From the IMG/VR virus record IMGVR_UViG_3300042197_002946, positions 1-64,000 of that record: 64,000 bases of DNA. The stretch is one strand, 5' to 3'. Every line of letters begins with the position of its first letter. The first letter of the stretch is position 1. This document shows, piece by piece, positions 8,347 through 59,718 of the stretch. Position numbers and translations under genes: made by a program. The stretch comes from a virus. The notes under the pieces are model-generated. The model had not been told where the DNA came from. It made no database searches and was given only the letters and a program-made list of their open reading frames with translations.

Positions 8347-8352
8347 TGTCAA

Positions 8353-8965: not shown

Positions 8966-8981
8966 TGCAAATACCGTGCCA
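8966..8981 (-). promoter_or_regulatory. sigma54 (-24/-12) consensus motif at head of array
   Basis: minus strand reads TGGCACGGTATTTGCA, matching TGGCACG-N4-TTGCW. Confidence 0.5.
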
Positions 8982-8998
8982 TTCAAGGGGTCTACATA

Positions 8999-9076
8999 TA
9001 AGTCCTTATATATCATATACTTACGTCAAAAATGGCCGCTCCGCTTAGCCGTAAGTCCTTATATTCCAGGCACTTA
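8999..9076. repeat. 78-bp repeat R12 (last, more diverged)
   Basis: sites at 8999-9023 and 9052-9076. Confidence 0.9.
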
Positions 9077-9184
9077 GGTCAAGGGGGTTTTTTCGTTTTT
9101 CAAAGGACTGCCCAAATTTTGCGATTTCGGCCACGGTGGTGCAAACATAATAGGCACAGATAAAATCGTAATGTACTACCTAAA

Positions 9185-10114: not shown

Positions 10115-10121
10115 AAAATTC

Positions 10122-11957: not shown

Positions 11958-12387
11958 ATTTTTCCTCATGCCAAAGCAACACTTCTTTGCATAATGCAAT
12001 AAATTCTTCTGGCAATAAATCTCCCTTGGCCTGATTAGCCTCTCTACAAACTATTTGACAATTGTCTAAACTATTATCTCCCCCTTTATTTTTGGGAATA
12101 ATATGATCCAAATGATACGAAGGACCATCAGACAAATTAATAGGGCGACCAGTTAATTGACAAACAGGATCATCCCCTATCTTTTTCAATAAATCCTTAG
12201 CGTTAAATTTCATGGGACTGTATGTTCCTTCCTTTTTATTACGGCCAAATCTAATAATTTTAATACCCAGAATTTTACTAACAGATCTATCCTCAGATAT
12301 AAATTGTATAAACTTGGTCTTCTTTTTATAATTATCTCTATACCCCTTATAGTTCTCTATTTTCTTCACTATAGGATGCTTAGTCAT
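11935..12387 (-). CDS. HNH endonuclease
   Basis: CQLTG...HLDHIIP..KGG.NSLDN...C..AN.AK. Confidence 0.85.
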   Translation of the reverse strand: MTKHPIVKKIENYKGYRDNYKKKTKFIQFISEDRSVSKILGIKIIRFGRNKKEGTYSPMKFNAKDLLKKIGDDPVCQLTGRPINLSDGPSYHLDHIIPKNKGGDNSLDNCQIVCREANQAKGDLLPEEFIALCKEVLLWHEEKYVRNSGL

Positions 12388-41904: not shown

Positions 41905-44900
41905 ATGGCTAAAGCTTTTAATCTTACAGCAGAATTAAATCTTAGAGGCCCATCTAATCTCAAGCAGATAGCAGCGTCCATTCGTAGAGAGATCGGGACC
42001 GTAGACGCTACTGTTAATGTTAAGATAGACAGAGCGGCCGAAAGATCCATACTTAATAGTGCTAATGCTCTAAATAGATTAAATAGAGAACTTCAGACAA
42101 CAGCAACAGCCTCAGCCTCATCCACCAATAACATCAACAACCTTGTCGCATCATTAAATAGCCTAAGTAATGCTTTGACTGGATCTAATAATTCTATGCA
42201 GCGCATAGTTTCTACATCAGAGCAAACAGCCAGACAAATGTCTCGAATTAGAAAGACGACAGCAGTAGCGCGAGATGAGATGGAAGAGTTTGGTCGTCAA
42301 TCAGCTTTGGCTGTGCGACGTTTTGCTGCCTTTAATTTTGCTACCGGAGTTATTTATGGTTTTTATAATGCAATTTCCAAAGCTTTGGGAGAATTTACAG
42401 AGTTTGATAGACAGTTGGTGCGATTAACGCAAATTACTGGAGAATCTTATAGCGAGCTAAGCAGGATAACAGAAACAATTACTGGATTATCAACCGGCTT
42501 GGGTGTTGCATCAGGAGACCTTATCCGCATATCGGATACATTAGCTCAGGCTGGCTTGAGTGCCAGAGAAACAGACCAAGCATTGAGGGCTTTGGCTTTG
42601 ACGGCTCTAGCTCCGTCCTTCGATGACCTGAATAACACTGTCGAAGGATCTATTGCATTAATGAGACAGTTTAAAATCGGTACTGATGATTTAGCTGGCG
42701 CTCTAGGTTCTATTAACGCAGTAGCTGCTGGTTTTGCTGTTGAGGCCGGTGATATTATTACAGCTATTCAGCGTACTGGTGGTGTGTTTGCCGCAGCTAG
42801 TAAAGGGGTTAGCGAAGGCACCGATGCGTTAAATGAATTTATTGCGGTATTTACTAGTGTAAGAGCCACAACTCGTGAAAGCGCAGAAACAATTGCTACA
42901 GGCTTGAGAACTATTTTTACTCGTATTCAACGAGAAGATACTATTGAGGCATTAAAAGAATATGGAGTTAATCTATTGGATGTAGAAGGTAAATTCGTTG
43001 GAGCTTATCGAGCTGTACAATTACTAAGCGAAGGTCTTGGCAAACTAGATCCTAGAGACGTAAGCTTTTCTAGAATAGTAGAAGAGCTTGGTGGATTTAG
43101 ACAGATTGGTAAGGTGCTTCCGTTGATTCAAGAATTCAGCACAGCACAACAAGCTTTAACAGTAGCTCAAAGAGGGCAAAATTCATTAGCGGCAGATGCA
43201 GCCAAAGCTCAGTCAGCATTAACAGTACAGTTTACCAAGACTAGAGAGTCATTTGTTGCTTTAATTCGAGATATTGGCAGTAGCGATAGCTTTAAAACAC
43301 TTATTAGTTTAGGCTTGACACTAGCTAATACATTCATCAAAGTAGCTGATTTCGCCAAGCCTCTACTTCCCATCCTAACAACCATCGCAGCATTACAAGG
43401 AGCTAAATCGTTAACGAGTTTTGTTGGTGGTTTCGTAGGGGGATTGCGTAAAGTACGTCCGGGAGAAGACGGAGGGGGCGGTGGAGGACCAGCTAATAGG
43501 GCTAGAACTGAAAGATCAGCCGCAGACATTACAGATAACTCTAGATATTTAGACGCCAACACCACAGCTTTGATGGGTCTGGGTACAGCTATGGGGGGTC
43601 TAACAGCAGTTATTAGTCCATTACAAGCTTCTATAGATAATTTGGGTAATGCAGCTATAGCTCAATTAAATAATGAGATTGTTGCTCTGAACAACACTAT
43701 GAGCAGTATTGATCTAGGCGGAGCCGCAACAGCTAAAGATGGTGGCAGAATATTACGTTTTGCTAGAGGAGGAGCTGTTCCTGGTAGCGGACGAGGAGAC
43801 AAAGTTCCGGCCATGCTGGAACCCGGTGAAGTTGTTATGAGCAATCGGGCTGTTAGTAAGTATGGAAGAGGTAATTTGGTAAGGATGAATAAGTATGCAA
43901 AAGGAGGAAAACCAAAAAGAGGAGTTCCTAATCAAGTTAATACTACGGATGTGGTTGATGGAGATACAATTGGTGCAGACATTTTCACCAATCTAACATT
44001 TAGATTTAGCGGAATTGACGCTCCAGAAAAATCTGAACCGCTTGGTGACAAAGCGACATCGGTATTGACTAACAAGAAGTTGAGCTACTTTAATAACAAA
44101 ATCACAAGTGGCGTCGGAGGTAAATCCAGGGGCTTATTTAAAGACGATGCATTAGCTGGCCAAATGATTCGTAGTGGTTTGGCAGTTCCAGATATAAGAT
44201 ATGCTAAGAACAAATTTAGTAGTGATGTTGAAGCAGGTAGAGCAGCAGGACAGGGCTTATGGAATAGTTCGTATGCTAATCATCCTAAAAGATTACAGTT
44301 TAAAGAGCAATACGGATATAGTTTTGGGGGTCAAATTCAAAAATTTATGAGCGGATCAGCCGGAGGAGTTAAGTCTAAACCCGAACCATTCGGTACAGGA
44401 GTCACCAAATTTCCTCGTCGTATAAGTAATGCCTACGCTAAACAGACGGAAAAGGAAAAGACAGATAGACATTTTGATAGACTCATACAAAACAGTCCTA
44501 TTAATGAAAGAATCATGGTTGATGAGGCTATGGAACAGCAGATATCCCAAGGGATGCAGCAGCCATTAGATCGTGAAAAATTTGCAGCGTCTTTTAGACG
44601 AGCTGTTTTAAGAGACGAAATAGCATCCAACATATCTAATTTTGCTAAATTGGTTGGACTTCCACAAGAAGATTTGTCTGTAGTATTACCAAGACAACTA
44701 GATTTTGGCTCTGGTTCTGGTCCTATAGGATCTCGTGGAGGTAGAGATGTTTTAGGTGGGGCTTTTACAACCATTAGTCCTTATGGTAGTCGTGGAGCAG
44801 AAGGCTGGGATCTTAGTGAGTTTGGTTATACTAAGCAGGACGAACAAGACCTATTCGGCTTAGAAAAACTGTTAGAAGAAAAGAAAAAAGAACGTGATAA

Positions 44901-47900
44901 AATACGCAAAACTCCAACACGTACTTTTGATGATGGTAGTTTTAGCTATGATTTGCAAGCCGCTGATAAGGCTAGCGATGAATATAATGCATTAAATAAA
45001 CAGATATATGATATTAGAAAAAAAAGAGATACTGCTATTTCTGCGGCCAACAAAGCTAGAGAAGAAGAAGTTGCATCATCTGGTAGAGCCACATTAGGTT
45101 TTGGTACTAGATTTGGTAAGGCTCAGAACCCTGTATTTTATCACGAATTAACACATCAACTATTCAAAGGATTAAGAGCAAAATCTGCTGATAGTTTTGA
45201 AAAATACAAGCAAAGAGTAACAACATTATTTGAAACCGACAACGATGGTTTGGCAGATGCTTTTGATGCTCTAGGTGCCGGTTATAGTAGTGCTGATGTT
45301 GTTTATGGACGAGCATATAAGCTAGATTTATTAGGAGCTAGACAAAGAGAAGAAATTAGAAAAGATCCAGCAGGAGAAGATGTTAAAAATCTGTCATCTA
45401 TTATTAAGTCTGGAAGTGCAGCTAAAAAAGCAACACAATTTCGCCCAATCAATCCAAGTTTCAATGAGGCTATGCTTAAGTTTTATAGCCAAGAGCATTT
45501 GGATAAGGTTGAAGATAATGGCAAAGAAGAATTCTTAACGACTCTTGTAGAAAAAATGCCGGTGTTGGACCAGCGTTTACAGGGCATATTGGACTCCACG
45601 ATGACAGAATTGTTGGGTGGAGCAGGAATACAGAGACAACAATATTTTGATGGTGGTTGGGTAGAAAGAATGAAAACACAACCAGACGACATATTACGTC
45701 GAGAGCTGCAGATGTTGCATTCTGGCAGTTTTATGCTATCGGTAGGAGAACGAAAAGTTTTAGCAAGTACTTTTGCTGGTCTTGGCAAATATGAAGATAT
45801 TGGAAAAAGAGAATTAGTAGCACGTATGCAGGCTATAAAAGATTATTTAGACGAAAGAGCTATTAACCAAAAAACAAAGTACGCAAAACGCAGAGGTCCT
45901 GGTCTACAAGCTACTGAAAAGTACAATGAACAAGAAATGTTGGATGCTGTTAACTACTATGCTGCTGGTAGTGGTCCTTTCACAAAGGCATTGGTTTCTG
46001 GCGCCAAAACGTTTAAGGAGCCCAGAGGAGAGACCTATAAAACAAAAGATATTAAAGATAGGCTATTAGCAGCTAGTCAATTTACAATCCCAAAGAAAAC
46101 CTATAGTGGTTTAGGACGAAGTCAATTTAGAGAAATATTGAGCGATACAAATACCACTCCCAAAAAACTTGCCACCAAAACAGACGAGACTTTACGAGGT
46201 TTGGTTGGTCAGACTATAGATTTTCCGACATTTTTATCCGTTAGCGCACAAAAAGATCAAGCAGAAGCTTTCGTACAAAATCCTGGAGCATTATTAAGTA
46301 TCGATGGTAGTAGTACAAGTCAAAAAACTATTGATGTTGTCAAAGCAAGAAGAAAAACACAAATTGATGACAGTGCGATTAAATCTAGCAGAAGATTAAA
46401 GGGCATAGAAAACATTAGCGAAAAAAAATTAGATATATACGAAGAAGAACAAGAGTTTATTGTTCCTCCTAATGTTGGTTTTAAAATCACCAAAGCCACA
46501 GGCACAGTTTACCAAGACCTTTCTGCTAAAGACTTAAAATCAAAATCTAAAAAAGCATTATCAGTATTTGATGATATCGATATGTTTTCTGATCCGGATA
46601 TTGATGATTTTGACAAGACTAGGCTCGATATTAAAGTGAATATGTTGAGATCGGGAGGTATTGTTCAAAAGTTCATGGACGGTGGAGTTGCTCAACGTAA
46701 GCTTGGTTATATAGACTATGATGTGATAGCTAATCCGGCTAATGAAGCTGTTGTAGCTAAAGGTATGGAAGCTACTGGAGTTAGCGGTCCTAGATTATAT
46801 ACTGATAAATTAATTGAAATGGCAGTCAAAGCCAGAAAAGAGCAGAGCTTAAATAAGCTTCGAGCTATTTATGGTGTTGCCGGAGCAGGAAAAACCACTA
46901 TGGCTCGTGGACAAGGTACCGACAAAGGAACTCTGCGAGAAACAACAAGATTTCCTATATTAAGTCCAGAGGATATTCATAGAGCCAATGAAATTATTCT
47001 ATTAAGTAGTAGTGTATCGCAAGATAAGTTGGATACACTATTTGCTGATGTAGATAGAGCTTATACTCTTAGTAGTACCACATCTGAAGAAAAAGAAAGA
47101 ATTAAAAGCCAAAGAGCAAGTCGAGACGCGACTGGAGTTGGTTTAGAGGGTCGTACTCCAGGATCAACTACTGGAGTTGCTAGGGATACTGTGGTAGGAG
47201 AAGCATTACTTGCTGATCGTTTAGGCGATAGGTCGGTTGTTCTAGGTCGTACGGAAAGTGGTAGACTAAGACGAAAAAGAGGGGACGAGCTTGTTGAAAT
47301 AGTTAAAAAGCGCATAGGAATGACTTGGGGCGGTTTTGCTCCTATGACAGCAGGACATGAAAGCATATTAGATGCTGCTGCTGCTATGGGCATATCTCCA
47401 GAAGACTTTGTATTTTTAGTAGGTTCTAATGAAAGCATAAAGCTTGGTGATCCATCTTCCTATAGAACAGCAATATTTAATCAAGACGCAAGAGTATTAT
47501 TAGCTAAAGCCGGAGCCGGAGCACGAGGAGCTACCGTAGTACCAAAAGCAGCAGATTTTGAGGTTCCTCTTGGTATAGATATTTCTGAACAAGAAGGCCG
47601 CAGAAAAGTGTTGTTGCCGGGCGAGGGCAGCACAGTTTTTGTTGCAGACAAAACAGAACAACAAACTGCAAAATATCGAGAAGCAGGATATAAGGTTAGT
47701 CATATAGAGCGCACGGGCGGAATTAGCGGCACTATGGTGAGAGATTTGATCATGAGCGGCAACATGGCCGAACTACAAAAGGTCTTAAGTCCAGGAGTTT
47801 ATGACTTAATTTCTAATAATATTGGGCGAATTCAGAATAGAGCTAATGTTTTACCAGATATTATAGAGCAGGTAAAACAAAGTCAGGGAGTTAAATTAGC

Positions 47901-50900: not shown

Positions 50901-53900
50901 TGGCGGAAGTCCTCCAGTTCCTCCGAGTAGTCCTCCTTCTGGCGACACTGAGGCTATGATTCAACGATATATGATGGAGCTTGAAACTGCTGCAAAAGCA
51001 ACTAAGCTACAAACATATCAGACAGAAAGACTAGCCGGAGCTACTGCTTCTGAAGCTAAGGCACGAGCAGACGCAGCCGCTTTCGCAGCCTATCAAGCAT
51101 TAGCTCAACAAAGACTAACAACAGCAACTACTGAAGAAGCTTCAGCAATCAATGAGGCTAGAAGTAGAATGGCTGCTACCAGAGGAGGAGCTACGGTTAC
51201 TGCTCAAGAATTTACCCCAGTAGCGCAATCTTTGAGCAGAGGAGGAGCCCCGGCACCAGACACTACAGACTACAGAAAACTAGCTCAAGACAATATTCAA
51301 GCATTGCAAGAAATGAATACTAGCGCATTAGCTTGGGCTGGAGGATCAGTCCTTGCCATTAAGGGACTAAGTGGGTTGGTAGGATCTTCCACTGCTTTAG
51401 GTAGCGCACTAGATGGAGTTTCCAATAGTGTTGGCAATACCCAAGCATTATTTTTAGGATTTAATAAGGTTCTTCGATTTGCATCAGAGATAGGAGTATC
51501 CGAAGAAGCATCCAAGAAAATAGAGGACTTTTCTGCCAAATTAATAGATGCTGGTCGTATGGTAAATAATTGGGCAGCTAAATTACCGGATGGACTATTT
51601 AAAAATTTAGCATCCAAATTAGGGGGAGGTATAGATTTGGGTGGAGGTCAATTAGGTAAACTAGGAGCTAAATTACCACAAGTTATTAGCAGTGTTACAT
51701 CATCGCTAACGGCTATTATGCCAACAGCTCAATTAGTTGTTGGTGGTCTCAATGCGGCAGCACAAGCGTTTATTGCTTATACTGATGCTATTCGAAATAA
51801 TAAAGTAGAGAATGCTACCAAAGCTTTGGATACTAGTTTAAAAAATGCCAGCAGTGCTTTGGATCTATATAATAAAAATACAGTAGATAATGCTAATCAG
51901 CTATCAGTAATGAATGCTGAGATTGGTAGAGCAGCCGCAGCAGCTAAAACTTTAGCAGACATAGATAAAACCAATCAAAAATGGAGTACTACTAATCTTA
52001 TTGGCGAAACACTAGCGATGGGTGGAGGAGGAGCAGAAAGCCGAGCCCAACGAGCAGAAATTTTGGACAAGAAAGGAACTATGGCATACGTTGGGTCACT
52101 ATTAGATTTTACAGGAGGTACTCAACAAAGATATTCCCAAGAATTAGCTCCACAGCAAGCTATCAAATCTTCTGAACAGTTCGCCAAGGTTGCCACTCTT
52201 ATTCAGCAGCAAAATCAAGCTAGATTTAAGGCTGGTGAAAGTTCATCAGATATTATGAATAGTCCTGAATGGGCACAACAAGCAGAAGTGATCGCAAGAG
52301 CTAATGCTGCTACAGAAGAAAGGCTACGATTAATAGATGCTGATATAAGCTTGTCTAAATCAGCTAGAGAAGCACGAAAGCAAGAATTGATACAATTCGC
52401 AGCAGCGGGAGCGGTAAGAAGTCAAGAAATTCAAGCCATTAGACAGGCAAATAATGACAGAGCCAATCAGGAGAGCGGAGCCCTCCTATACAGCTTAGAG
52501 CGAATGTTGAACAATATGGAACAGAGCATCAGTTCTGTAACATATTCATTAAGTAAGCTTGCCGATCAAACAGATTTACTTAGATCGTCTATGACGGGAG
52601 AGGCCAAAATAGGGTCTTCAAGAGTGGATGCTATTAATGTTTTACAAAATCCCAATGTATCTAGCGATGTAGAAAGAGCACAAGCATCTAAGACAGCTTC
52701 TCAGTTTTTTGGTGCTCAAGGGAAAGATATTGAGGGATTATTAAATTTTGGTCCTAAATTAGAAGAAACTATTTTGTCTTCCATCAATAGAACAGTTAAA
52801 GAAGATCCCAATGCTGGAAGCGGCAAAATCGAGGCTAGAATATCACAGAATTTGGAAAAAGAATTAGGCAAGCTAAATATTGATGCTGGACTTAGACAAG
52901 TTGTATCTAAACAAATGGCAGGATCCATCACTGACTCTAGAACAAAGGGTGATGATAAAACAGACTTTAAGACTCTTTTCAGTGAAACGGCAGCATTTGG
53001 AAAGATTGTTCAGTCAACTAAGAGAGCACAAGAAGCTGCTGTGAAAGCTTTAGAATTCTATCAGCAGTCAGTAAATAACTATGCTCAGTCAATGAATGAG
53101 ATGGTTAGTTTACAAATATCGTCTAACGAAAAATTTAGAAGAGCATCAGATATTCGTGCTCGTGGAGAGTTAGATCTAGCTAAAACTTTAGGAAAGAGCG
53201 TTTCATTCGAAAAATCAAAACAAGTGGCACAAGCTGGAGTTATCAGTCAAGCAGGCACAGCTGACCCAACAGCAATCTTTAATAATATAGGTCGTTTGGA
53301 ACAAGTTAGACAAAGTCAACAAGGAGCCTTAAACTCAGCAGTTCAAGGAGGACCACGTAATCAAAAAGATATAATAGCTTTCAATAGAGAGTTAGCTTCT
53401 ACAACAATGGGACTTAGAGAAAACTATGCCGCACTCAAGGGATTAGCAGAGAGTACGGAAGTAGCGCAAGCTGCTATGACCAAAATTGGAGAATTAAAAG
53501 CTAAAAATGAAGCAGGTCTTAATATTCTAGAAAGATTCGTAACATCTTCTCCAAAAGATCAAGCTAAATTAAGTGGCGCTTTTGAACGTTTAGATCGTAA
53601 TATGAATGGTCAAATTAATAATATGTGGGATTCTGCAAGAGTGCAAGAAGCATACAATGAAGCGCTACAAAGTGGCGCTAGTATGCAAGAAGCCCAAGAT
53701 GCAGCAGATTCGGCAGCTGCACAAGATAGAGGGGATACTCTAGAAGCGTTCAGAATGTTGGCTCCTATGCTTGGAGAAAATCAAAACGAATTAAAAGCCA
53801 ATATGCTTGAATCTATGATGAGAGAGTCTGGTACTGAAACCAGCCCAATGTTTAGTAAGGTTATCGAAGGACTCAGAAATCCCGAGCAAGATCCCCAGAT

Positions 53901-56900
53901 GGCAGAAGCTATCAATCAATACAAACAGGCTATCGAATTGCAGTCTCAAGCTAATCGTTACTTAGCTATGTTAGACGGTAGATTAGCTATAGACATTGGA
54001 CAGCAGTCTCAAGCAGCCTTTACTAACGCACTAAATGGTGTTGGTCAAGCTTTCGCTAATACCAATACAGCAGACATGGCTAAGGGTATTCAGCAATTAA
54101 ACGATCATCTCAGAGGCGGAGTTACCAAAGTTACAAATGTTGGCGGAGGTGGAGCCCTGCCTTTTGCTAGAGGAGGTAAGGTTGAATACCGAGCTGTTGG
54201 TGGGTCTATCTTCCAACCAAAAGGAACTGATACAGTACCAGCTATGTTAACTCCGGGAGAATTCGTAGTCAATAAGAGAGCCGCTTCTGCTAACAAAGGA
54301 ATTTTAACAGCTATTAATAATGGATACTCTAAAGGAGGTAGTGTCAAATATCTTGCTGAAGGCGGCTGGGTATCTGATATGTTAACTCCTGAAACCGATA
54401 GGTTCGGAGACGCTAAACCAGGGGAACTATATACCAAATGGGATGATTTTTCTAAGTTTGCCTCTGGCAATGATGTAAAAGCCAATATAGAAAAAATTAA
54501 AGCTAATAGTAAAGATATTTACTTTTATAAACCACACTCTTACCCAACATTCTCTGCTAGAGAAACTGAGAGTTCAGAATTGTTGTCTCAATTGAAATCT
54601 GGCATGGATGGAGATAATTCCTTTTTTGGTTTTCTTCCAGACTTTAGTATGAGTTTACTGAATACCGCAGGGAATATTATTGGAGCAACAGCACAAGGAG
54701 TTGGCACAGGGGCTGTGGGAGGCGCTGCTATGGCAGCTAATCCGGCTCAATTTGTATCTGCTACTGCTGCTGGTAATTTTTCACAAGGACAAAATACTGC
54801 CGGAGCTTTGTTGGGTAATGGTAAATTAGGAACAGCTGCGAGCTGGATATGGGAAGCTATGAAGTTTGTCCCAGGTTTAGGTGGAGTTGTTTCTGGTATA
54901 GACGCTTTTAAGAAATTAGTTTTTGATTATGATCTGATCGGTGGAGCACTAGAAGCCGTTAATGCTGTGTTCTCTCTAATACCATTTCCTGGAGCTGGCT
55001 TGCTTGGCAAGGGAATAAGTAAAGGATTGGGATGGATGATGAAAATTTTTGGAAAAGGTAGAGTAGCCACAATGGGTAAAACCTGGATACCTAAATTAAT
55101 AGAAGCCACTGGCGCAACAAGACTAATGAATACAGTAAAAGGATGGCTAGGTCAGGGGCCTGCTAATTTAGTGGAAAAATTACTACCAGATGTTGTTAAG
55201 AAAAAGCTTGGTCTAAATTTAGCTGGGGCTGGTAAATCTGGCGCAACGTTGGCTAGAGAAGGCATTGAACAAATGTCTCCTGATGTTTTGGATGCCTATA
55301 AAGCATATAGAAAAGCAGGAATGGCGGCTGATGAAGCTTTGGCTAGAGCTAAAGGCAGACTGAATTATGTGGGATCATCAACTAGCGGTATGCAAGCTTC
55401 GGCAGCACAAGCAGCAGCTAGAAATGCTAGCGATGCTGGGCTTGCTGGTAGAGCTACAATTAATGATATGGCCGCTAGGGCTGTCACAGGATCAGCATAC
55501 GGAGCCGGGGCTATGGGTACCGCCGCCGCTGGTACTGCATATATGCAGGGTCGAACACCCAGCGCAACCATGAGCGGGGCAGATAAACTGAAAAGTATCA
55601 CAGAAGCTCTTGGATTCAAGATCCCAGATCAGTTCAGAAGTCCAGAGACAACATCAAAAATCTTTGATGAAAATTTAGATAATTTAGCTCTGTCGGAGGC
55701 ACAGATGCAGTTATCTGCTGTTGAAATGTGGATCAAGGCTATAGATGAGGCTAATAAATGGTCAGAGACCAATAAGCCACCCAAAGCAAAGGCTTCGTAT
55801 TCCAATGGTTCTTATAATTTTACATCTGAACCAGTAAATAAAAAAGAGTATATGTATGCCACTATTGGAGAAGCACTAAGTACAGATGCTATCATGGGTG
55901 ATTTGAAACCCAATATAATTAAATTCTACAAGAGCGGTAATCCTACTTTATCTAATAGTCCAGACACCAATCAAATCAGCGCAGCTGCCGAGAGTTTCAT
56001 CAAGTCACAAGGTCGAGATTTTGATCAGTTATTAAGTACAGATAACTATAATAGATTTCAAGACATTAACAGTATCAAAGACTATTTACAAGATTACTAT
56101 GATAGTTTAAGAGAAATTAACACTGCAACCACGACACCAGAAAAATATAACTCCGCACACTGGAGTCCTGCTCAACCATCTAAACAAAAAGAAGGCAGAA
56201 TCTCCTCTATCTTAGGGTCTTTGCAGGCCGGTACTAGATATAGCTATGATTTTAAGAAATCTGAATTAGCCAAAGTCAGTGATTTCCAATGGGGGTCATC
56301 CGCACCAGCACCCGCTAAGGATGGAGAAAAACCCGCAGAATCCAAAGATACTGGAGATGTATTAACCGTTTATGGTACCGAAATGAGGGCGATTTGGTCA
56401 AATATTAGAGATGCTGAAGATGAAACTATCAAAGAGGCCATAAAGAATAAAAATATATGGGATGGAAAAGCAGAGAACGCTTTTAGAATTTACAAACAGG
56501 GATCATCTCCTGATCAATATGATCCTCTACCATGGACAACCAATCCGTCTTTAATTACAGCTGGAATGAGACAATTAGCTCAACAGTCTACGGAAGATAA
56601 TATAGCAAGTACTATAGGATTAAAAATGGGAACAGTGTCTCGTTTTGATAAAGTCATCGACCTGCCGAAAGCAAAAAGAGAACTACCAGTAAGCTTTAGC
56701 TACCAACCCTTCCAACAAATCCCACTATTAGATCCAGCGACTACAGATATTGATAGTGCTGTTAATCAATTTTTACCAGGAGCAACTTCAACAGAACCTA
56801 GTCCCACCCCTGTTCCTGGTGTGTTTATTAAATACAGAGCTACCGAAGCGGCAGACCCAACCCTCAGCCCATTCTCATCAATGGCTCCTGGGGCAGATAA

Positions 56901-59718
56901 GCTTATGCCTTATTATAGTAGTGTAGCTAATATGGAGAAAGCTGTCAACGATTGGGCATTAGGTAATTTTGATAGGGTGGCCGACTGGAGCTTGCTCGGA
57001 GTATCTCTTGCATCGGGATATTCGCCCATCAAGGCAGAAGCAGCAATGAAAAGCGCCGAGAGTATCAGAGGAGCCAGAACAAAAAGAAAGAGCAAAGAAG
57101 GATCTGTACCAGATAAAGAATCATCTATTAATAGTGCTACAGAATATTTATTTAAAAAAGATGCATTATTCTATAAGGATGATTTCTTATCGGCGGTGGA
57201 ACCATCATATCCAGAAGCTGGAAATATTGCAGGAGCTAAAATACCTAACCTTGTTGATATTATGCAGAGACGTGCGGCTAGGCAAATAGCTGGCAATAAA
57301 GATGCGAAAAAGGCAGAGATATCAGCTAAGGCCAGTTTAGTTAATTTCAAGAGCGAAGAAGTTCCTTTATTAGGTGATATTGTTTGGCAAAAAATTAAAG
57401 AATCATCACTAGCTGCTGGACCAGCATTATCTAGTGCTGCTGATTGGCAAAATGCAGCAACTGCTGACGGTGTTCCACCACCAGCTAAAATTAGTGGTCA
57501 AGACGATTTAATGGCAGCTGTGGACTATATAGCTTGGATTCAGGCTAAGGTACTAAGACTAAGAGATAAGGCCACAGAACAAAATAATAGAGAGTCTGTT
57601 GAAAATCTAGGCTCTGAAGCTGAATTTGGTAAGTACATGAGTGCTGGAAGATTTTTAAGTCAACTAGCTTCTGATTCTGAAAGGCCAGTAACAGCTAGTA
57701 CCACCATAGGACAAGCCAGTGAGAGACTGTACAGTAAATATATGAACGAGAATAAACTAGATAAATATATCAAAAAGTCTGCATTCAAGGACAAAGACTC
57801 TGGGAAAGATATAGAACAACAGTTCTGGGATGTTCCTAAAATTATCAATGAAGACAAAAGTTTTGTAGATTATATTCTTGGTTTTGCTAATCAGACTCGC
57901 ACAGCTCAAAGATTCAGACAAGCTGTCACAGGCAACGGTAGGGCAGAGCTGGGTGGTGAGCAGAAAGCGCTACTGCAAGGACAATTCAAAGCTTTTGGTC
58001 AATCAAAGAGCGCTACTGCTATGATGGGATCTGGAGCTAAAGATGCTGCTCAAACAACGATGAAAGTAGCTAGTGCTGATGGTATAGAAGAAATTGCTAT
58101 TCCAACAGAAATAGATAATGTTATTGATCAATTTTTAGATACTAGTAAGGTTTATGAACCACTATACAGAGAAACTTTAGGCAAAATACTTGAGACTAAC
58201 GGTAGAACATACGCAGAAAAATGGACAAAAAGCGGAGACCCAGGCACTGCTGGATGGGCTTCTATATGGGGAGAGTATTCAGAGCAACTCACAGCTTTAA
58301 CTGACTTTTTAGTTAATAGAGACAGATTATTAATGAGACCCATAGCAACCGAAGGGTCTTCTTTATATCCTCCAGCCGTCTTGCCATCTATCTCAGAAAG
58401 CTTATTGCCCACTTTACAATCTGTTGCTCAGGTTTCTGGCATTAAGCCCCCAGAAGATGTCACGGCCGAAACGCTATTGGGAGCTATTAATGATAGAGCA
58501 TTGATGATGGAGCAGATCAAGAGATTTATGGCCTCGGTTTCTCCCACTGCCCCAGAGGACTACGAGAAACGCGATCAAATGAAGAAAATAGCCAAACAAG
58601 CGATGGATTTTTATGAAAACAATCTGTCCCCATCTTCGTTACCTAGAGTCTTTACTCAAGAGGGTAATGAGATATGGAATAAATTACGAGAAAATTATAA
58701 AGCTGCAAATGAAGCGTATATGGGTTTTGCTGCTGATGGTAGCGATGTCTCTGTAGGACTAGGATCTTTGGAGGATATTTATAACCCATCACAAATGCCA
58801 TATGCACAAAATACATTATACGGTTTATATTATAGACTTAATAAACAAGCAGGTACTAATAATACAGTAGAGGCTCTTATGAATGAGAAGGCTGCTAAAG
58901 ACAAGGCAGCAGCAGCAGGAGCAACACCAAAACCAGAAACACAAACCCAAGACGTACCAGCACAAGCGGCAGCCGCTGCTCCCAAAGAGCCGGAACCAGG
59001 AATACCTCCAGAACCAACCAGAGAAGAAGCAGAAAGAAAAGTACAGGCCAGAGCTAAGGGTGGTCTAATTTATAGAGCTGATGGAGGAGCAGCTCCTGTG
59101 AATTGGAGCCCAAGAGGCACTGATACTGTACCAGCCATGTTAACTCCTGGCGAATTTGTGATCAATAGAGGAGCTACACAGAAATACTTACCAATTTTAG
59201 AAGCTATTAATAATGGCAGTACAACAGCTGGTCAAATTGTTACATATGCTAATCGTGGTGGAGTAATTAAACCTAAATATTTCCAAGTGGGTGGAAGTGT
59301 TGAAGGAGCCTCAAGTGGTGTATCTACTTCATATAGTATGGGGTTTGATAGTGCCACATTGGCCGCTATTAAGCAATTTGATAGCAGTGTTCAATCTCTT
59401 GGAGATGCTTTATCCGGATTACAACTTGGCAACATCAAAATAGATGAGGCTGCATTAAGTGCATTGGGGGATTTTGCTACACGATTTGATCAGTTTACAC
59501 AAAGCTTATTGAAACTCAATGTACCACCAGTTATTAGCATCACAGGACAACATGAGGTCAATGTGAATATTAATGGCACATCTGTATTTAATAATATGGA
59601 AGAGAAAATGAAGCAGCTTATTAGTCAAGAAGTGGATAAGGCTTTCACTCAGCTATCTAAGGAAACAGAAGGTAACATTACTATGAATTATAAGCCACCA
59701 CAATCACCCATGGGTTAA
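41905..59718 (+). CDS. giant (5937 aa) multidomain tape measure protein with embedded enzyme domains
   Basis: TP901-type TMP core in first ~500 aa (LAQAG...TRESAETIATGLRTIFTRI); GTDTVPAMLTPGEFV modules; SNase, HExxH, ART, P-loop, TxGH NTase and HAD motifs. Confidence 0.9.
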   Translation: MAKAFNLTAELNLRGPSNLKQIAASIRREIGTVDATVNVKIDRAAERSILNSANALNRLNRELQTTATASASSTNNINNLVASLNSLSNALTGSNNSMQRIVSTSEQTARQMSRIRKTTAVARDEMEEFGRQSALAVRRFAAFNFATGVIYGFYNAISKALGEFTEFDRQLVRLTQITGESYSELSRITETITGLSTGLGVASGDLIRISDTLAQAGLSARETDQALRALALTALAPSFDDLNNTVEGSIALMRQFKIGTDDLAGALGSINAVAAGFAVEAGDIITAIQRTGGVFAAASKGVSEGTDALNEFIAVFTSVRATTRESAETIATGLRTIFTRIQREDTIEALKEYGVNLLDVEGKFVGAYRAVQLLSEGLGKLDPRDVSFSRIVEELGGFRQIGKVLPLIQEFSTAQQALTVAQRGQNSLAADAAKAQSALTVQFTKTRESFVALIRDIGSSDSFKTLISLGLTLANTFIKVADFAKPLLPILTTIAALQGAKSLTSFVGGFVGGLRKVRPGEDGGGGGGPANRARTERSAADITDNSRYLDANTTALMGLGTAMGGLTAVISPLQASIDNLGNAAIAQLNNEIVALNNTMSSIDLGGAATAKDGGRILRFARGGAVPGSGRGDKVPAMLEPGEVVMSNRAVSKYGRGNLVRMNKYAKGGKPKRGVPNQVNTTDVVDGDTIGADIFTNLTFRFSGIDAPEKSEPLGDKATSVLTNKKLSYFNNKITSGVGGKSRGLFKDDALAGQMIRSGLAVPDIRYAKNKFSSDVEAGRAAGQGLWNSSYANHPKRLQFKEQYGYSFGGQIQKFMSGSAGGVKSKPEPFGTGVTKFPRRISNAYAKQTEKEKTDRHFDRLIQNSPINERIMVDEAMEQQISQGMQQPLDREKFAASFRRAVLRDEIASNISNFAKLVGLPQEDLSVVLPRQLDFGSGSGPIGSRGGRDVLGGAFTTISPYGSRGAEGWDLSEFGYTKQDEQDLFGLEKLLEEKKKERDKIRKTPTRTFDDGSFSYDLQAADKASDEYNALNKQIYDIRKKRDTAISAANKAREEEVASSGRATLGFGTRFGKAQNPVFYHELTHQLFKGLRAKSADSFEKYKQRVTTLFETDNDGLADAFDALGAGYSSADVVYGRAYKLDLLGARQREEIRKDPAGEDVKNLSSIIKSGSAAKKATQFRPINPSFNEAMLKFYSQEHLDKVEDNGKEEFLTTLVEKMPVLDQRLQGILDSTMTELLGGAGIQRQQYFDGGWVERMKTQPDDILRRELQMLHSGSFMLSVGERKVLASTFAGLGKYEDIGKRELVARMQAIKDYLDERAINQKTKYAKRRGPGLQATEKYNEQEMLDAVNYYAAGSGPFTKALVSGAKTFKEPRGETYKTKDIKDRLLAASQFTIPKKTYSGLGRSQFREILSDTNTTPKKLATKTDETLRGLVGQTIDFPTFLSVSAQKDQAEAFVQNPGALLSIDGSSTSQKTIDVVKARRKTQIDDSAIKSSRRLKGIENISEKKLDIYEEEQEFIVPPNVGFKITKATGTVYQDLSAKDLKSKSKKALSVFDDIDMFSDPDIDDFDKTRLDIKVNMLRSGGIVQKFMDGGVAQRKLGYIDYDVIANPANEAVVAKGMEATGVSGPRLYTDKLIEMAVKARKEQSLNKLRAIYGVAGAGKTTMARGQGTDKGTLRETTRFPILSPEDIHRANEIILLSSSVSQDKLDTLFADVDRAYTLSSTTSEEKERIKSQRASRDATGVGLEGRTPGSTTGVARDTVVGEALLADRLGDRSVVLGRTESGRLRRKRGDELVEIVKKRIGMTWGGFAPMTAGHESILDAAAAMGISPEDFVFLVGSNESIKLGDPSSYRTAIFNQDARVLLAKAGAGARGATVVPKAADFEVPLGIDISEQEGRRKVLLPGEGSTVFVADKTEQQTAKYREAGYKVSHIERTGGISGTMVRDLIMSGNMAELQKVLSPGVYDLISNNIGRIQNRANVLPDIIEQVKQSQGVKLAEVERAIKAVGISRIDPKKMEDPEYAAKVQVLEELRSQRDKIKRSAAFEPYRLLDKLAASQPEQYALDFSQSQIATPAPVRTVKDRAMAAVAAETSSLTSVSSGDAGIGTGQSLLDNLATRLKALGGESGLKALLKEVGEGIPLNLQKQLRTDQIKRGVLDTARVTGLIEKAEERQRQKKAEREGTRHVAMAGLQPLDYSWDPEWELADGRKYIATIRGFKSSYLQDIQRFRDRQKAAALEFGKDTTATEALDLLGQNTVQGPSRPLAIDFDETLAFGTKMLDSSGQEDISAYYDEARVREVLSKATPTRLAQRLLEIEKDQPGTVRAYTRVLTARAESLKHLVTETLNRFGLPYTDSDITGVGQRGDNDRAIARKKADNLSTIERFIDDNEKNISAAQQKGIQSYRYSEPKAFENASDYEPFGAGNIEGALLEQTLAMKIGRPIDFEALEQNRALDFPNGLGAAASLFGLPPNIETEVKRTLNKDSFTKARSEFNRYFKENPDKYNAGGVAGFADGGTVPALVSNGEAYVPPKLAKKIGYGKLNRMNQADRNGMGRFADGGISVFKGPGSGTSDSIPTSLPVGSFVIRAKATKALGLNRGGSVGVTSPQRFEMGGEVLTAAEMQRLELDMRKVFESLPEQLRDSIRNLDLPDVDTSTWNTIDISLRKVFLSVNRNVDTLGKDVVEAMRAMTTAGQNALQSIDLDRVRTRQSEIASDRGYTQVDKDRMKADVSLAKDARGAVSDRKRKNRERQEQGKAPFPMLDLMEMMRSSVGRSPDPISVTAATPVPEVQSPSRDAEYYRQRMNYSDVSGNKNTPISDRGMAYAGELTKQDDSKVDALVKQMRDMFSSAMAGIGQTPSAAGQSESWATWDIGKQLFMNQNPDQSSDKYQLGNPMQDPKLVLQMVQRMVGYEVSGGGQREGKANNIPSFELVEIGAKAMAESLGKNQAALDAFLSLVSGITVDDIVGPASPGAPTSPTPPTAPIPPTPPTPPSGGSPPSGGGSPPVPPSSPPSGDTEAMIQRYMMELETAAKATKLQTYQTERLAGATASEAKARADAAAFAAYQALAQQRLTTATTEEASAINEARSRMAATRGGATVTAQEFTPVAQSLSRGGAPAPDTTDYRKLAQDNIQALQEMNTSALAWAGGSVLAIKGLSGLVGSSTALGSALDGVSNSVGNTQALFLGFNKVLRFASEIGVSEEASKKIEDFSAKLIDAGRMVNNWAAKLPDGLFKNLASKLGGGIDLGGGQLGKLGAKLPQVISSVTSSLTAIMPTAQLVVGGLNAAAQAFIAYTDAIRNNKVENATKALDTSLKNASSALDLYNKNTVDNANQLSVMNAEIGRAAAAAKTLADIDKTNQKWSTTNLIGETLAMGGGGAESRAQRAEILDKKGTMAYVGSLLDFTGGTQQRYSQELAPQQAIKSSEQFAKVATLIQQQNQARFKAGESSSDIMNSPEWAQQAEVIARANAATEERLRLIDADISLSKSAREARKQELIQFAAAGAVRSQEIQAIRQANNDRANQESGALLYSLERMLNNMEQSISSVTYSLSKLADQTDLLRSSMTGEAKIGSSRVDAINVLQNPNVSSDVERAQASKTASQFFGAQGKDIEGLLNFGPKLEETILSSINRTVKEDPNAGSGKIEARISQNLEKELGKLNIDAGLRQVVSKQMAGSITDSRTKGDDKTDFKTLFSETAAFGKIVQSTKRAQEAAVKALEFYQQSVNNYAQSMNEMVSLQISSNEKFRRASDIRARGELDLAKTLGKSVSFEKSKQVAQAGVISQAGTADPTAIFNNIGRLEQVRQSQQGALNSAVQGGPRNQKDIIAFNRELASTTMGLRENYAALKGLAESTEVAQAAMTKIGELKAKNEAGLNILERFVTSSPKDQAKLSGAFERLDRNMNGQINNMWDSARVQEAYNEALQSGASMQEAQDAADSAAAQDRGDTLEAFRMLAPMLGENQNELKANMLESMMRESGTETSPMFSKVIEGLRNPEQDPQMAEAINQYKQAIELQSQANRYLAMLDGRLAIDIGQQSQAAFTNALNGVGQAFANTNTADMAKGIQQLNDHLRGGVTKVTNVGGGGALPFARGGKVEYRAVGGSIFQPKGTDTVPAMLTPGEFVVNKRAASANKGILTAINNGYSKGGSVKYLAEGGWVSDMLTPETDRFGDAKPGELYTKWDDFSKFASGNDVKANIEKIKANSKDIYFYKPHSYPTFSARETESSELLSQLKSGMDGDNSFFGFLPDFSMSLLNTAGNIIGATAQGVGTGAVGGAAMAANPAQFVSATAAGNFSQGQNTAGALLGNGKLGTAASWIWEAMKFVPGLGGVVSGIDAFKKLVFDYDLIGGALEAVNAVFSLIPFPGAGLLGKGISKGLGWMMKIFGKGRVATMGKTWIPKLIEATGATRLMNTVKGWLGQGPANLVEKLLPDVVKKKLGLNLAGAGKSGATLAREGIEQMSPDVLDAYKAYRKAGMAADEALARAKGRLNYVGSSTSGMQASAAQAAARNASDAGLAGRATINDMAARAVTGSAYGAGAMGTAAAGTAYMQGRTPSATMSGADKLKSITEALGFKIPDQFRSPETTSKIFDENLDNLALSEAQMQLSAVEMWIKAIDEANKWSETNKPPKAKASYSNGSYNFTSEPVNKKEYMYATIGEALSTDAIMGDLKPNIIKFYKSGNPTLSNSPDTNQISAAAESFIKSQGRDFDQLLSTDNYNRFQDINSIKDYLQDYYDSLREINTATTTPEKYNSAHWSPAQPSKQKEGRISSILGSLQAGTRYSYDFKKSELAKVSDFQWGSSAPAPAKDGEKPAESKDTGDVLTVYGTEMRAIWSNIRDAEDETIKEAIKNKNIWDGKAENAFRIYKQGSSPDQYDPLPWTTNPSLITAGMRQLAQQSTEDNIASTIGLKMGTVSRFDKVIDLPKAKRELPVSFSYQPFQQIPLLDPATTDIDSAVNQFLPGATSTEPSPTPVPGVFIKYRATEAADPTLSPFSSMAPGADKLMPYYSSVANMEKAVNDWALGNFDRVADWSLLGVSLASGYSPIKAEAAMKSAESIRGARTKRKSKEGSVPDKESSINSATEYLFKKDALFYKDDFLSAVEPSYPEAGNIAGAKIPNLVDIMQRRAARQIAGNKDAKKAEISAKASLVNFKSEEVPLLGDIVWQKIKESSLAAGPALSSAADWQNAATADGVPPPAKISGQDDLMAAVDYIAWIQAKVLRLRDKATEQNNRESVENLGSEAEFGKYMSAGRFLSQLASDSERPVTASTTIGQASERLYSKYMNENKLDKYIKKSAFKDKDSGKDIEQQFWDVPKIINEDKSFVDYILGFANQTRTAQRFRQAVTGNGRAELGGEQKALLQGQFKAFGQSKSATAMMGSGAKDAAQTTMKVASADGIEEIAIPTEIDNVIDQFLDTSKVYEPLYRETLGKILETNGRTYAEKWTKSGDPGTAGWASIWGEYSEQLTALTDFLVNRDRLLMRPIATEGSSLYPPAVLPSISESLLPTLQSVAQVSGIKPPEDVTAETLLGAINDRALMMEQIKRFMASVSPTAPEDYEKRDQMKKIAKQAMDFYENNLSPSSLPRVFTQEGNEIWNKLRENYKAANEAYMGFAADGSDVSVGLGSLEDIYNPSQMPYAQNTLYGLYYRLNKQAGTNNTVEALMNEKAAKDKAAAAGATPKPETQTQDVPAQAAAAAPKEPEPGIPPEPTREEAERKVQARAKGGLIYRADGGAAPVNWSPRGTDTVPAMLTPGEFVINRGATQKYLPILEAINNGSTTAGQIVTYANRGGVIKPKYFQVGGSVEGASSGVSTSYSMGFDSATLAAIKQFDSSVQSLGDALSGLQLGNIKIDEAALSALGDFATRFDQFTQSLLKLNVPPVISITGQHEVNVNINGTSVFNNMEEKMKQLISQEVDKAFTQLSKETEGNITMNYKPPQSPMG

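What the first reader, a model, noticed from the sequence alone, without database searches (positions are those of the whole stretch)
43741..59295. [FY]xxGG linkers punctuate the TMP exactly at cargo boundaries
Seen: FARGG (43759) and YAKGG (43894) before the SNase; YSFGG/FMSGS (44317-44358) after it; YFDGG (45643) between peptidase and ART; LRSGG/FMDGG (46645-46686) after the ART; YNAGG, FADGG twice and FEMGG (49414-49746); FARGG to LAEGG (54163-54366); RAKGG to FQVGG (59050-59295). Four clusters include a VPAML.PGE.V-type mini-domain. Inference: these are proteolytic release sites or threading signals, and possibly homology points for module exchange. This would be a protein-level cassette system paralleling the DNA array.
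Basis: partly seen in the sequence, partly recalled or inferred. Interest (0 to 1): 0.76.

Follow-up and report, generated by a model that had tools for sequence, protein, structure and literature searches.

The report
Junction peptides delimit swappable tape-measure cargo
The 5,937-residue tail "ruler" protein of this 150-kb uncultured phage is a string of enzyme-like modules joined by one short conserved glycine-marked peptide, and related phages have added, dropped and reordered modules exactly at that peptide, so the tail may carry a changeable set of ready-made enzymes, though cutting at the joints is untested.

Summary
Observation confirmed. All listed motifs lie at the stated coordinates in one ORF (41905-59718, 5,937 aa, PF10145 tape measure core). 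[FY]xxGG occurs 12 times against 2.7 expected (0 of 2,000 shuffles).

The motif is half of something larger. It forms both ends of a 14-residue junction (Φ-x-x-G-G-x-[VI]-Q-[KR]-F-x-x-G-G). It also flanks a ~65-aa mini-domain, present five times here and once in lambda gpH (residues 732-786).

The module-exchange reading is strongly supported. Across 120 giant relatives, 40% of major homology breakpoints lie within 12 aa of a motif (6% expected), and 61% of motifs sit on a breakpoint (9% expected). Empty and filled sites differ by one cassette plus one junction. Flanking homology stops at the first GG and resumes after the second.

The constraint is on the protein, not the DNA: junction codon usage equals the gene-wide usage.

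Cleavage and threading remain untested. Hints: the mapped T5 pb2 cut lies inside an RAEGG, and lambda gpH is cut near its mini-domain. The embedded HExxH module cannot be the general protease (40 of 237 relatives have it).

This scan found the same architecture before on at least eight other genomes. I found no paper describing it.

The parts
41905..59718 (+). Giant tape measure protein gene, 5,937 aa (P0001)
   Evidence: Single ORF. PF10145 E 3.4e-21 and tape-measure PHROGs. More than 620 relatives of 3,300-7,700 aa.
42475..43056 (+). PF10145 tape measure core (aa 191-384), inside the conserved N frame aa 1-~500
   Evidence: All 119 relatives cover aa 1-500.
43732..43950 (+). Mini-domain copy 1 (aa 610-682), flanked by FARGG and YAKGG
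   Evidence: Breakpoint clusters at aa 610 (51 relatives) and 671 (79 relatives).
43957..44304 (+). Cargo module a, SNase-like (aa 685-800)
   Evidence: PF00565 E 0.025, below cut-off; PHROG 452 endonuclease E 5e-4. Present in about 27 of 119 relatives.
44317..44358 (+). Junction peptide 1 (aa 805-818; YSFGG ... FMSGS, second GG degenerate)
   Evidence: Breakpoint cluster at aa 812 (26 relatives). pLDDT about 31 in the model. Identity to P0002 switches from 71% to 44% here.
44383..45654 (+). Cargo module b, HExxH (zincin-like) module (aa 827-1250)
   Evidence: AF2 confident region is model residues 48-471, equal to aa 827-1250. HExxH invariant in 17 homologues. No PDB fold match. Present in 40 of 237 relatives.
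45643..45657 (+). YFDGG, the single junction motif that ends module b
   Evidence: Per-column identity among 16 non-redundant instances is 0.65 upstream and 0.10 from +3 after the GG. Breakpoint cluster at aa 1255.
45682..46629 (+). Cargo module c, ADP-ribosyltransferase-like (aa 1260-1575)
   Evidence: Aligns with P0038 residues 1413-1687, which hold PF03496 (E 1.3e-7). Present in about 15 of 119 relatives.
46645..46686 (+). Junction peptide 2 (aa 1581-1594; LRSGG ... FMDGG), canonical double-GG form
   Evidence: Breakpoint cluster at aa 1584 (43 relatives).
46702..49389 (+). Cargo modules d, e, f (aa 1600-2495): P-loop/nucleotidyltransferase-like, then HAD-like
   Evidence: PF16581 E 0.005. 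Internal breakpoints at aa 2094, 2260 and 2419 lack the motif. The start of module d follows a junction in 43 instances with 33 different upstream families.
49411..49755 (+). Mini-domain copies 2a and 2b (aa 2503-2617) with YNAGG, FADGG x2, FEMGG. YNAGG-VAG-FADGG is an empty insertion site.
   Evidence: L002 has 415 aa inserted between the two motifs, and P0029 has 662 aa there. Breakpoint clusters at aa 2508 (103 relatives), 2555 and 2616.
51832..54129 (+). Conserved central frame 'h' (aa 3310-4075)
   Evidence: Covered by 75-111 of 119 relatives.
54136..54399 (+). Mini-domain copy 3 (aa 4078-4165) with FARGG, YSKGG, LAEGG
   Evidence: Coverage by relatives falls from 110 to 47 between aa 4150 and 4170. 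Breakpoint cluster at aa 4159 (98 relatives).
59047..59304 (+). Mini-domain copy 4 (aa 5715-5800) with RAKGG, RADGG, FQVGG
   Evidence: Coverage rises from 47 to 111 between aa 5700 and 5720. Breakpoint cluster at aa 5712 (97 relatives).
59305..59715 (+). Conserved C-terminal frame (aa 5801-5937)
   Evidence: Covered by about 80-100 of 119 relatives.

Best explanation
Shown: the [FY]xxGG motifs are the two halves of a universal junction peptide. The stand-alone form is Φ-x-x-G-G-x-[VI]-Q-[KR]-F-x-x-G-G. The expanded form has a ~65-aa mini-domain between the two GG motifs. These junctions separate exchangeable cargo modules strung inside a giant tape measure protein, between three conserved frames: the N core, a central block and the C end. 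Modules have been gained, lost, replaced and reordered at these junctions many independent times. An insertion adds one module plus one junction. The junction is conserved as protein, not as DNA. The mini-domain is an old tape-measure element, found as a single copy in lambda gpH and in the tape measures of many cultured siphophages. Here it has been multiplied so that copies bracket the inserted blocks.

Inferred (about 0.45): the junctions are maturation sites. During or after tail assembly a protease that is not the embedded HExxH module cuts at or beside them. The ruler then becomes a set of separate pieces stored in the tail lumen and expelled ahead of the DNA. This would match the cuts that free T5 pb2C and lambda gpHC.

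Inferred: exchange works because any in-frame join inside the shared junction gives a functional protein. Selection, helped by short similarity of the junction coding sequence, therefore concentrates surviving recombinants there.
For: Enrichment and coordinates.

Junction form: GG-to-GG spacing peaks at 9 (959 cases) and 8 (476 cases) against about 100-200 for neighbouring spacings in 237 proteins, with V/I at +3 and F/Y at +6.

Mini-domain:
- Five copies here.
- 19,965 cluster representatives at E <= 1e-3, with up to 11 copies per protein.
- Always under annotated tape measure genes in cultured phages.
- Lambda gpH 732-786 matches the family HMM (24 bits, E 1e-9 for one target), hhalign gives 82.8% and E 9e-6, and the profile hits PDB chain 8iyk_H.

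Boundaries:
- This protein's breakpoints.
- Family-wide: 40% against 6.1%, and 61% against 8.9%.
- 603 insertion events, 162 with the motif at all three points where about 0.0004 is expected.
- Flanking homology ends at -2/-1 and resumes at +11 to +14.
- Identity falls from 0.65 to 0.10 right after the GG.
- The AF2 fold ends at YFDGG and the junction is disordered.

Shuffling: module order varies. 377 junctions link 247 upstream and 235 downstream families in 326 pairings, and one module start has 33 different upstream partners. Identity is mosaic, 71% / 44% / none / 86%.

Protein-level constraint: junction codon entropy equals gene-wide, and two mini-domain copies are only 82% identical in DNA.

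Cleavage hints: the T5 pb2 cut after R1127 (PMC10038345) lies inside RAEGG, one of three loose motifs in 1,219 aa. Lambda gpH is cut in its Gly-rich stretch at an unknown site by an unknown protease (PMC12617516), and a 14-kDa fragment implies a cut near residues 712-722, 10-25 residues before the mini-domain.
Against: No direct evidence of cleavage, of virion location of the cargo or of delivery exists for any member.

- 60% of major breakpoints are not at a motif. In this protein these are aa ~515, 2094, 2260, 2419 and 3281. 119 of 603 insertions have no motif.
- T5 pb2 is not a detectable homologue of the mini-domain (HMM negative; hhalign 0.5%). Its cut follows Arg, not an aromatic residue, so the match is one post-hoc pattern (chance about 1-2%).
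- The lambda fragment size fits a cut before the motif better than a cut at FATGG, which would give 12.2 kDa.
- No protease candidate was found. The HExxH module is in only 40 of 237 relatives, with equal motif density with or without it. No JAB/MPN domain was found in the genome.
- Breakpoints and insertion events are not phylogenetically independent, so the percentages overstate the number of events. The 33-partner count is the better guide.
Confidence: 0.55

Rival explanations
1. The junctions are uncut structural joints. The 9-residue G-G-x-V-x-x-F-x-x units and the mini-domains would be docking or register elements. They might fold only in the trimer or hexamer, or against the tube lumen, the tail assembly chaperones or the tip hub. 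They would hold the chains together between bulky cargo modules. Modules are exchanged at them simply because they are the only places where the chain tolerates a join.
For: - Position-specific conservation (aromatic at -3, V/I at +3 from the first Gly, that is two residues after the GG) across unrelated neighbours suggests recognition by a partner rather than a floppy linker.
- As a monomer the mini-domain is predicted largely disordered (pLDDT 59, one helix), as expected for a segment that folds on binding.
- In lambda the corresponding stretch (~690-817) stays with the particle but is unresolved (PMC12617516).
- No protease candidate was found.
Against: The two tape measures whose processing is known are both cut in or next to such a stretch (PMC10038345, PMC12617516). 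No partner has been identified. Monomer disorder fits a protease site equally well.
Confidence: 0.33
2. The embedded HExxH module is a self-processing protease that cuts the GG junctions in cis. This is the MPTase idea proposed for polyvalent proteins.
For: HExxH is invariant in 17 homologues of the module. Autoprocessing by embedded metallopeptidases has been proposed for phage polyvalent proteins (PMC5512222).
Against: Only 40 of 237 family proteins carry the module. Motif density is the same with it (2.77 per 1,000 aa) and without it (2.73). Lambda has the mini-domain but no such module. No zincin fold match was found by Foldseek or VIA-align, though the search of a 511-residue helical model is inconclusive.
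Confidence: 0.07
3. The motifs are DNA-level recombination signals. The conserved coding sequence would serve as a crossover or integrase-like site, and the amino-acid motif would be a by-product. This would parallel a DNA cassette array.
For: Exchange points coincide with the motif. AT-biased codon use gives some nucleotide similarity between junctions.
Against: - Codon choice at the junction Gly, Gln, Lys and Phe positions matches gene-wide usage, with entropies 1.39-1.65 against 1.74 for Gly and 0.77 against 0.82 for Gln.
- The two most similar mini-domain copies share only 82% over 65 nt, with synonymous differences.
- There is no tandem DNA array in the window.
- The motif is kept in lambda, where there are no cassettes.
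Confidence: 0.04
4. Chance or compositional artefact: Gly-rich flexible linkers with no specific role, with BLAST alignments merely stopping at low-complexity stretches.
For: The protein is Gly-rich (8.7%). GG dipeptides are somewhat over-represented overall (65 against 45 expected).
Against: - No shuffle reached the observed count.
- There is a sharp 9-residue spacing peak and position-specific residues.
- Breakpoints were counted only where 60 aa or more is gained or lost, so simple alignment drop-outs are excluded.
- Empty and filled sites are explicit.
Confidence: 0.01

Closest known systems
Phage lambda gpH and its maturation to gpH* plus gpHC (PMC12617516)
   Same: gpH residues 732-786 are one copy of the same mini-domain, flanked by FATGG and YATGG. 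It lies in the Gly-rich C-terminal region where gpH is cut. As here, it follows a hydrophobic and Gly-rich stretch and precedes a short C-terminal part that binds the tip.
   Different: Lambda has one copy, no cargo and 853 aa. The cut site and protease are unknown, and the fragment size suggests a cut 10-25 residues before the motif. The mini-domain region is unresolved in the cryo-EM maps.
Phage T5 pb2, cut after R1127 into pb2* and the muralytic pb2C (PMC10038345)
   Same: A tape measure cut during assembly so that an enzyme domain is separated from the ruler body. The cut lies inside an RAEGG pentapeptide. That form also occurs here (RAKGG, RADGG, RAVGG).
   Different: There is no detectable homology to the mini-domain. 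T5 has one site and one cargo. The residue before the cut is Arg rather than Phe or Tyr.
Thermus phage P23-45 gp96, a 5,002-aa tape measure fused to a virion RNA polymerase (PMC10770324)
   Same: A giant tape measure with an experimentally shown enzymatic cargo that acts in the infected cell.
   Different: gp96 has no mini-domain, no [FY]xxGG enrichment (2 observed, 1.7 expected) and no double-GG junction. It carries a fixed cargo, not an exchangeable array.
Polyvalent proteins of phages and conjugative elements (Iyer et al. 2017, PMC5512222)
   Same: Very large virion-associated proteins that combine many unrelated enzyme domains (ART, kinase, nucleotidyltransferase, nuclease, metallopeptidase). 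Processing into units has been proposed for them.
   Different: That paper does not mention tape measure proteins (0 occurrences) and describes no common junction peptide. Here the carrier is the tail ruler, and the units are fenced by one conserved motif.
Pre-toxin demarcation motifs of polymorphic toxins, such as PT-VENN of CdiA (PMC3482391)
   Same: It works alike: a short conserved motif sits exactly at the border between constant and exchangeable parts. It is proposed both as a recombination point and as a processing site.
   Different: Those are unrelated sequences in bacterial secreted toxins, with a single C-terminal cassette and a linked immunity gene. Here there is an internal multi-cassette array in a phage structural protein. 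This is an analogy only.

Membership tests
Phage tail tape measure protein (TP901 / PF10145 type) | PF10145 core region | tested here: met
   PF10145 E 3.4e-21, 76.5 bits against a cut-off of 33.2, at aa 191-384. Tape-measure PHROGs 4211 and 28 also match.
Phage tail tape measure protein (TP901 / PF10145 type) | Position in a tail gene block of a tailed phage | tested here: inconclusive
   Terminase, portal and tail-fibre genes lie upstream on the same strand, in a 150-kb virus record. The small ORFs just upstream and the large ORF downstream match no named family.
Phage tail tape measure protein (TP901 / PF10145 type) | Sets tail length and occupies the tube lumen | not testable with these tools
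   Needs virions.
Lambda gpH-type C-terminal mini-domain | FxxGG, then G.D..PA.L..GE[FY]V, a short helix ending L...N, then YxxGG | tested here: met
   Five copies here. Lambda gpH 732-786 matches the family HMM at E 1e-9 for one target. hhalign gives 82.8% probability, E 9.4e-6.
Lambda gpH-type C-terminal mini-domain | Proteolytic maturation in the adjacent Gly-rich stretch | not testable with these tools
   Known for lambda only, with site and protease unknown (PMC12617516).
T5 pb2-type cleaved tape measure | Sequence homology around the mapped cut | tested here: not met
   The mini-domain HMM is negative on pb2. hhalign gives 0.5% probability, E 0.12. Only the pentapeptide pattern RAEGG is shared.
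Polyvalent proteins (Iyer et al. 2017) | Several unrelated enzymatic domains in one giant phage protein | tested here: met
   SNase-like (weak), ART-like (transitive), nucleotidyltransferase-associated and HExxH modules. They vary in a combinatorial way among relatives.
Polyvalent proteins (Iyer et al. 2017) | Embedded MPTase-type metallopeptidase for self-processing | tested here: inconclusive
   HExxH is invariant, but there is no fold match. The module is present in only 40 of 237 relatives.
Polyvalent proteins (Iyer et al. 2017) | Packaged in the virion and delivered into the host | not testable with these tools
   Inferred only from the protein being the tape measure.
P23-45 gp96-type cargo-fused tape measure | Shared junction or mini-domain architecture | tested here: not met
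   gp96 has no mini-domain, 2 motifs against 1.7 expected and no double-GG junction.
Polymorphic toxin systems (pre-toxin motif plus cassette) | C-terminal toxin cassette with adjacent immunity gene | not tested
   Considered as a functional analogy only. The array is internal and sits in a phage structural gene.

The most novel reading that the evidence does not exclude
The junction peptide and mini-domain are the recognition sites of a general, still unidentified tape-measure maturation protease. Giant tape measures of this family would then be true polyproteins. They would be cut into a ruler and tip part plus a plug-and-play set of free enzymes (nuclease, ADP-ribosyltransferase, kinase/phosphatase and others) that are expelled into the host ahead of the DNA. 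The same site would explain the fifty-year-old unknown of where lambda gpH is cut to give gpH*.
Probability: 0.35. Interest if true: 0.85.

Novelty: new variant of a known kind. Interest (0 to 1): 0.68.

Why it matters
Cargo-bearing tape measures are known from single cases: lytic domains, T5 pb2C and the P23-45 virion RNA polymerase. Multi-enzyme polyvalent proteins are known from other virion proteins. What is new here is a rule.

- In a family of more than 620 giant tape measures, one short peptide marks every place where a module can be added, dropped or moved. The same element sits once in lambda gpH, beside its unmapped maturation cut.
- This gives a precise, cheap test for an old open question: the site and mechanism of gpH processing.
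- It gives a way to read the payload of uncultured siphophages by splitting at the junctions.
- It offers a natural design rule for fusing payloads into a phage tail protein.
- If the pieces are released, siphophage tails would be a second route, beside the head, for injecting host-takeover and counter-defence enzymes.

Tried and rejected
- PDB sequence search with the five-copy profile found nothing. With 69 copies it gave only a marginal lambda hit (E 0.67), later firmed up with a 1,290-copy HMM and hhalign.
- Pfam has no family for the mini-domain.
- AF2 of one mini-domain as a monomer gave pLDDT 59, so no fold search was warranted.
- Foldseek and VIA-align on the HExxH module matched only generic helical hairpins. 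The zincin fold is neither shown nor excluded.
- I tested whether a lambda gpK-like JAB/MPN peptidase, which would cut after Gly-Gly, is encoded here. Neither PF14464 nor PF01398 is in the 150-kb genome. The lambda gpK connection is from my own recollection and was not checked.
- DNA-level signal rejected.
- T5 pb2 as a homologue rejected; only a pattern match remains.
- P23-45 gp96 as a member rejected.
- The search for related loci with the 5-copy alignment failed for lack of a conserved stretch.
Extra loci therefore came from viral-contig scans.
- A long multi-module AF2 run was dropped because alignment depth from the loci was only 0-7.
- Six literature searches found no description of the junction.
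Full report
WHAT IS THERE. The finding lies inside one open reading frame, window 41905-59718 on the + strand, encoding 5,937 residues. Residues 191-384 match the tape measure core PF10145 (E 3.4e-21), and the N-terminal third matches tape-measure PHROGs. Upstream on the same strand are a large terminase, a portal and tail-fibre genes. The window belongs to a 150,336-bp virus record rated complete. The gene is therefore the tape measure of a large uncultured tailed phage and takes up about 12% of its genome.

THE OBSERVATION. [FY]xxGG occurs 12 times against 2.7 expected, and none of 2,000 shuffles reached 12. The narrower F[AM][RDE]GG occurs 5 times against 0.04. Five copies of a ~65-residue mini-domain lie in four clusters, at aa 610-682, 2503-2555, 2548-2617, 4078-4165 and 5715-5800. 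Its pattern is FxxGG, a loop, G.D.VPAML.PGE.V, a short helix ending L...N, then YxxGG.

THE MOTIF IS HALF OF A LARGER UNIT. In 237 family proteins the distance between successive GG dipeptides peaks sharply at 9 (959 cases) and 8 (476 cases), against roughly 100-200 for neighbouring spacings. V/I is preferred at +3 and F/Y at +6. The stand-alone junction is thus Φ-x-x-G-G-x-[VI]-Q-[KR]-F-x-x-G-G. In this protein the examples are aa 805-818 and 1581-1594. The mini-domain is the same frame with about 45 residues between the two GG motifs. Across the family there are 3,038 [FY]xxGG against 506 expected, and 69% lie in or beside a mini-domain.

HOW WIDESPREAD.
- A search with residues 1-700 found more than 620 tape measures of 3,300-7,700 residues.
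- A profile of the mini-domain found 19,965 cluster representatives at E <= 1e-3 among 1.84 billion proteins. The top hits carry up to 11 copies.
- In cultured phages the mini-domain was found only under annotated tape measure genes. Hosts include Gordonia, Nodularia, Brevundimonas, Rhizobium, Burkholderia, Ralstonia, Paracoccus, Shewanella, Erythrobacter and Clavibacter. Examples are a 3,404-aa protein in Nodularia phage 2AV2 and a 2,441-aa protein in Brevundimonas phage Domovoi.
- In this genome it occurs only in the tape measure.

Yes, far more often than chance.
- Against L002 (5,109 aa), homology at 81% identity ends at YAKGG (aa 664-668). The adjacent pair YNAGG-VAG-FADGG (aa 2504-2516) is an empty site where L002 carries 415 extra residues between the same two motifs.
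- Against 119 relatives, 10 of the 15 major breakpoint clusters of this protein lie within 12 residues of a listed motif. The exceptions are a Gly run at aa ~515 and aa 2094, 2260, 2419 and ~3281.
- In an all-against-all comparison of 120 proteins, 40% of 2,285 major breakpoints lie within 12 residues of [FY]xxGG, against 6.1% expected. Only gaps of 60 residues or more were counted. Conversely, 61% of 1,716 motifs have a major breakpoint within 12 residues, against 8.9% of random positions.
- Of 603 distinct pure insertions, 162 have the motif at both ends of the insert and at the empty site. The chance per point is 0.075. 119 insertions have none. In the clearest pairs the empty site is a single junction and the filled site is junction, module, junction.
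- At residue resolution on 374 stand-alone junctions, homology of the upstream module ends at -2/-1 before the first GG. Homology of the downstream module begins at +11 to +14, just after the second GG. The junction itself is common to all.
- For the HExxH module, column identity among 16 non-redundant instances is 0.65 before the closing GG and 0.10 from three residues after it. At least six different neighbours follow it in independent contigs.

INDEPENDENT STRUCTURAL CHECK. An AlphaFold model of aa 780-1290 (17 sequences, pTM 0.70) is confident from aa 827 to 1250. It ends at YFDGG (aa 1247-1251). The junction at aa 805-818 has pLDDT about 31. The flanks beyond the junctions had little alignment depth, so their low confidence is expected. 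The junction itself was covered.

IT IS A CASSETTE SYSTEM. An N frame, a central frame (aa ~3310-4075) and a C frame are kept in most relatives. The modules between them are present or absent in many combinations. They are sometimes in a different order, for example the HExxH module after the HAD-like module, or the kinase-like module before the ART-like one. 377 stand-alone junctions link 247 upstream and 235 downstream sequence families in 326 pairings. The start of the kinase/nucleotidyltransferase-like module follows a junction in 43 instances with 33 different upstream families. That figure is the best guide here to independent events. Identity to the closest relative is mosaic: 71%, 44%, none and 86%. 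It switches at aa 808-822, at 2516 and at a Pro-rich tract near aa 3014.

PROTEIN OR DNA SIGNAL? Codon choice at the junction Gly, Gln, Lys and Phe positions matches gene-wide usage. The two most similar mini-domain copies share only 82% over 65 nt, with synonymous differences. There is no tandem DNA array in the window. The constraint is on the peptide.

LINK TO KNOWN TAPE MEASURES.
- Lambda. gpH residues 732-786 are one copy of the mini-domain, flanked by FATGG and YATGG. The family HMM scores 24 bits (E 1e-9 for a single target), hhalign gives 82.8% and E 9e-6, and there is a marginal profile hit to PDB chain 8iyk_H. gpH is cut in this Gly-rich region into gpH* and a ~14-kDa gpHC. Site and protease are unknown, and residues ~690-817 are unresolved (PMC12617516). 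A 14-kDa fragment implies a cut near residues 712-722, whereas a cut after FATGG would give 12.2 kDa.
- T5. pb2 is cut after R1127, which frees the muralytic C-terminal piece (PMC10038345). In the sequence that cut lies inside RAEGG, one of three loose motifs in 1,219 residues. pb2 is not a detectable homologue of the mini-domain, so this is a single post-hoc pattern match.
- P23-45. gp96 is the one giant tape measure with a proven cargo (PMC10770324). It has no mini-domain, no motif enrichment and no double-GG junction.
- The polyvalent-protein paper does not mention tape measures.

MECHANISM. Shown: the junctions are the module borders and the exchange points, and they are conserved as peptide. 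Inferred: position-specific conservation across unrelated neighbours and across distant phages points to recognition by some partner.

I favour maturation cleavage at or beside the junctions (about 0.45), because the only two tape measures with known processing are cut in or next to such a stretch. The main rival is an uncut docking or register element that folds only in the oligomer or against tube, chaperone or hub (about 0.33). The monomer model of the mini-domain is mostly disordered, which fits either view.

The embedded HExxH module is not the general protease. It is present in 40 of 237 relatives, and motif density is equal with and without it. No JAB/MPN peptidase is encoded in the genome.

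CAVEATS.
- Breakpoint and insertion counts are pairwise and not corrected for shared ancestry.
- 60% of breakpoints are not at a motif.
- The cargo labels SNase, ART and peptidase are weak or transitive.
- Nothing here shows that the cargo is in the virion lumen or reaches the host.

EARLIER NOTES OF THIS SCAN. First-reader notes on the same gene named the five mini-domain copies and the zincin idea. Follow-up reports on at least eight other genomes describe the same architecture and gave me the T5 and P23-45 leads. I tested both myself. Six literature searches found no published description of the junction.

Noticed in passing
window 25677-27014 (+): [quoted passage not shown] It could be a DGR target protein. 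I did not look for a template repeat or a reverse transcriptase.
   Followed up: no
window 59735-64000 (+), open at the window end: The gene directly after the tape measure is also very large: at least 1,422 aa here and 2,488 aa in relatives L002 and L003. It contains an LbR_Ice_bind beta-roll (PF21300, E 5.5e-8) and matches no PHROG.
   Followed up: no
window 1-12000: G+C is 0.42-0.46 against 0.33-0.37 in the next 28 kb. GC skew is negative and most ORFs are on the minus strand, so this is a differently composed genome module.
   Followed up: no
window ~50830-50930 (aa ~2975-3010 of the tape measure): A Pro-rich tract is a mosaic breakpoint without the GG motif. Identity to the closest relative jumps from none to 86% at aa 3014. 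A second kind of boundary therefore exists.
   Followed up: partly
window ~43400-43500 (aa ~500-530): The end of the conserved N core is a hydrophobic stretch and then a Gly run (FVGG twice, then six Gly). It is the most used non-motif breakpoint (62 relatives). It resembles the hydrophobic and Gly-rich stretch that precedes the mini-domain in lambda gpH. Residues 1-680 thus look like a complete ordinary tape measure up to its mini-domain.
   Followed up: partly
window 44383-45654 (aa 827-1250): The HExxH module gives a confident, mostly helical AlphaFold model (pTM 0.70) with no significant match in the PDB by Foldseek or VIA-align. It may be a fold not yet solved, or a zincin too divergent or too embedded to be found in a 511-residue search.
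   Followed up: partly
window 27874-31347 (+): A 1,157-aa tail-fibre-like protein has at least six fibronectin type III repeats (PF00041, E 4e-56).
   Followed up: no
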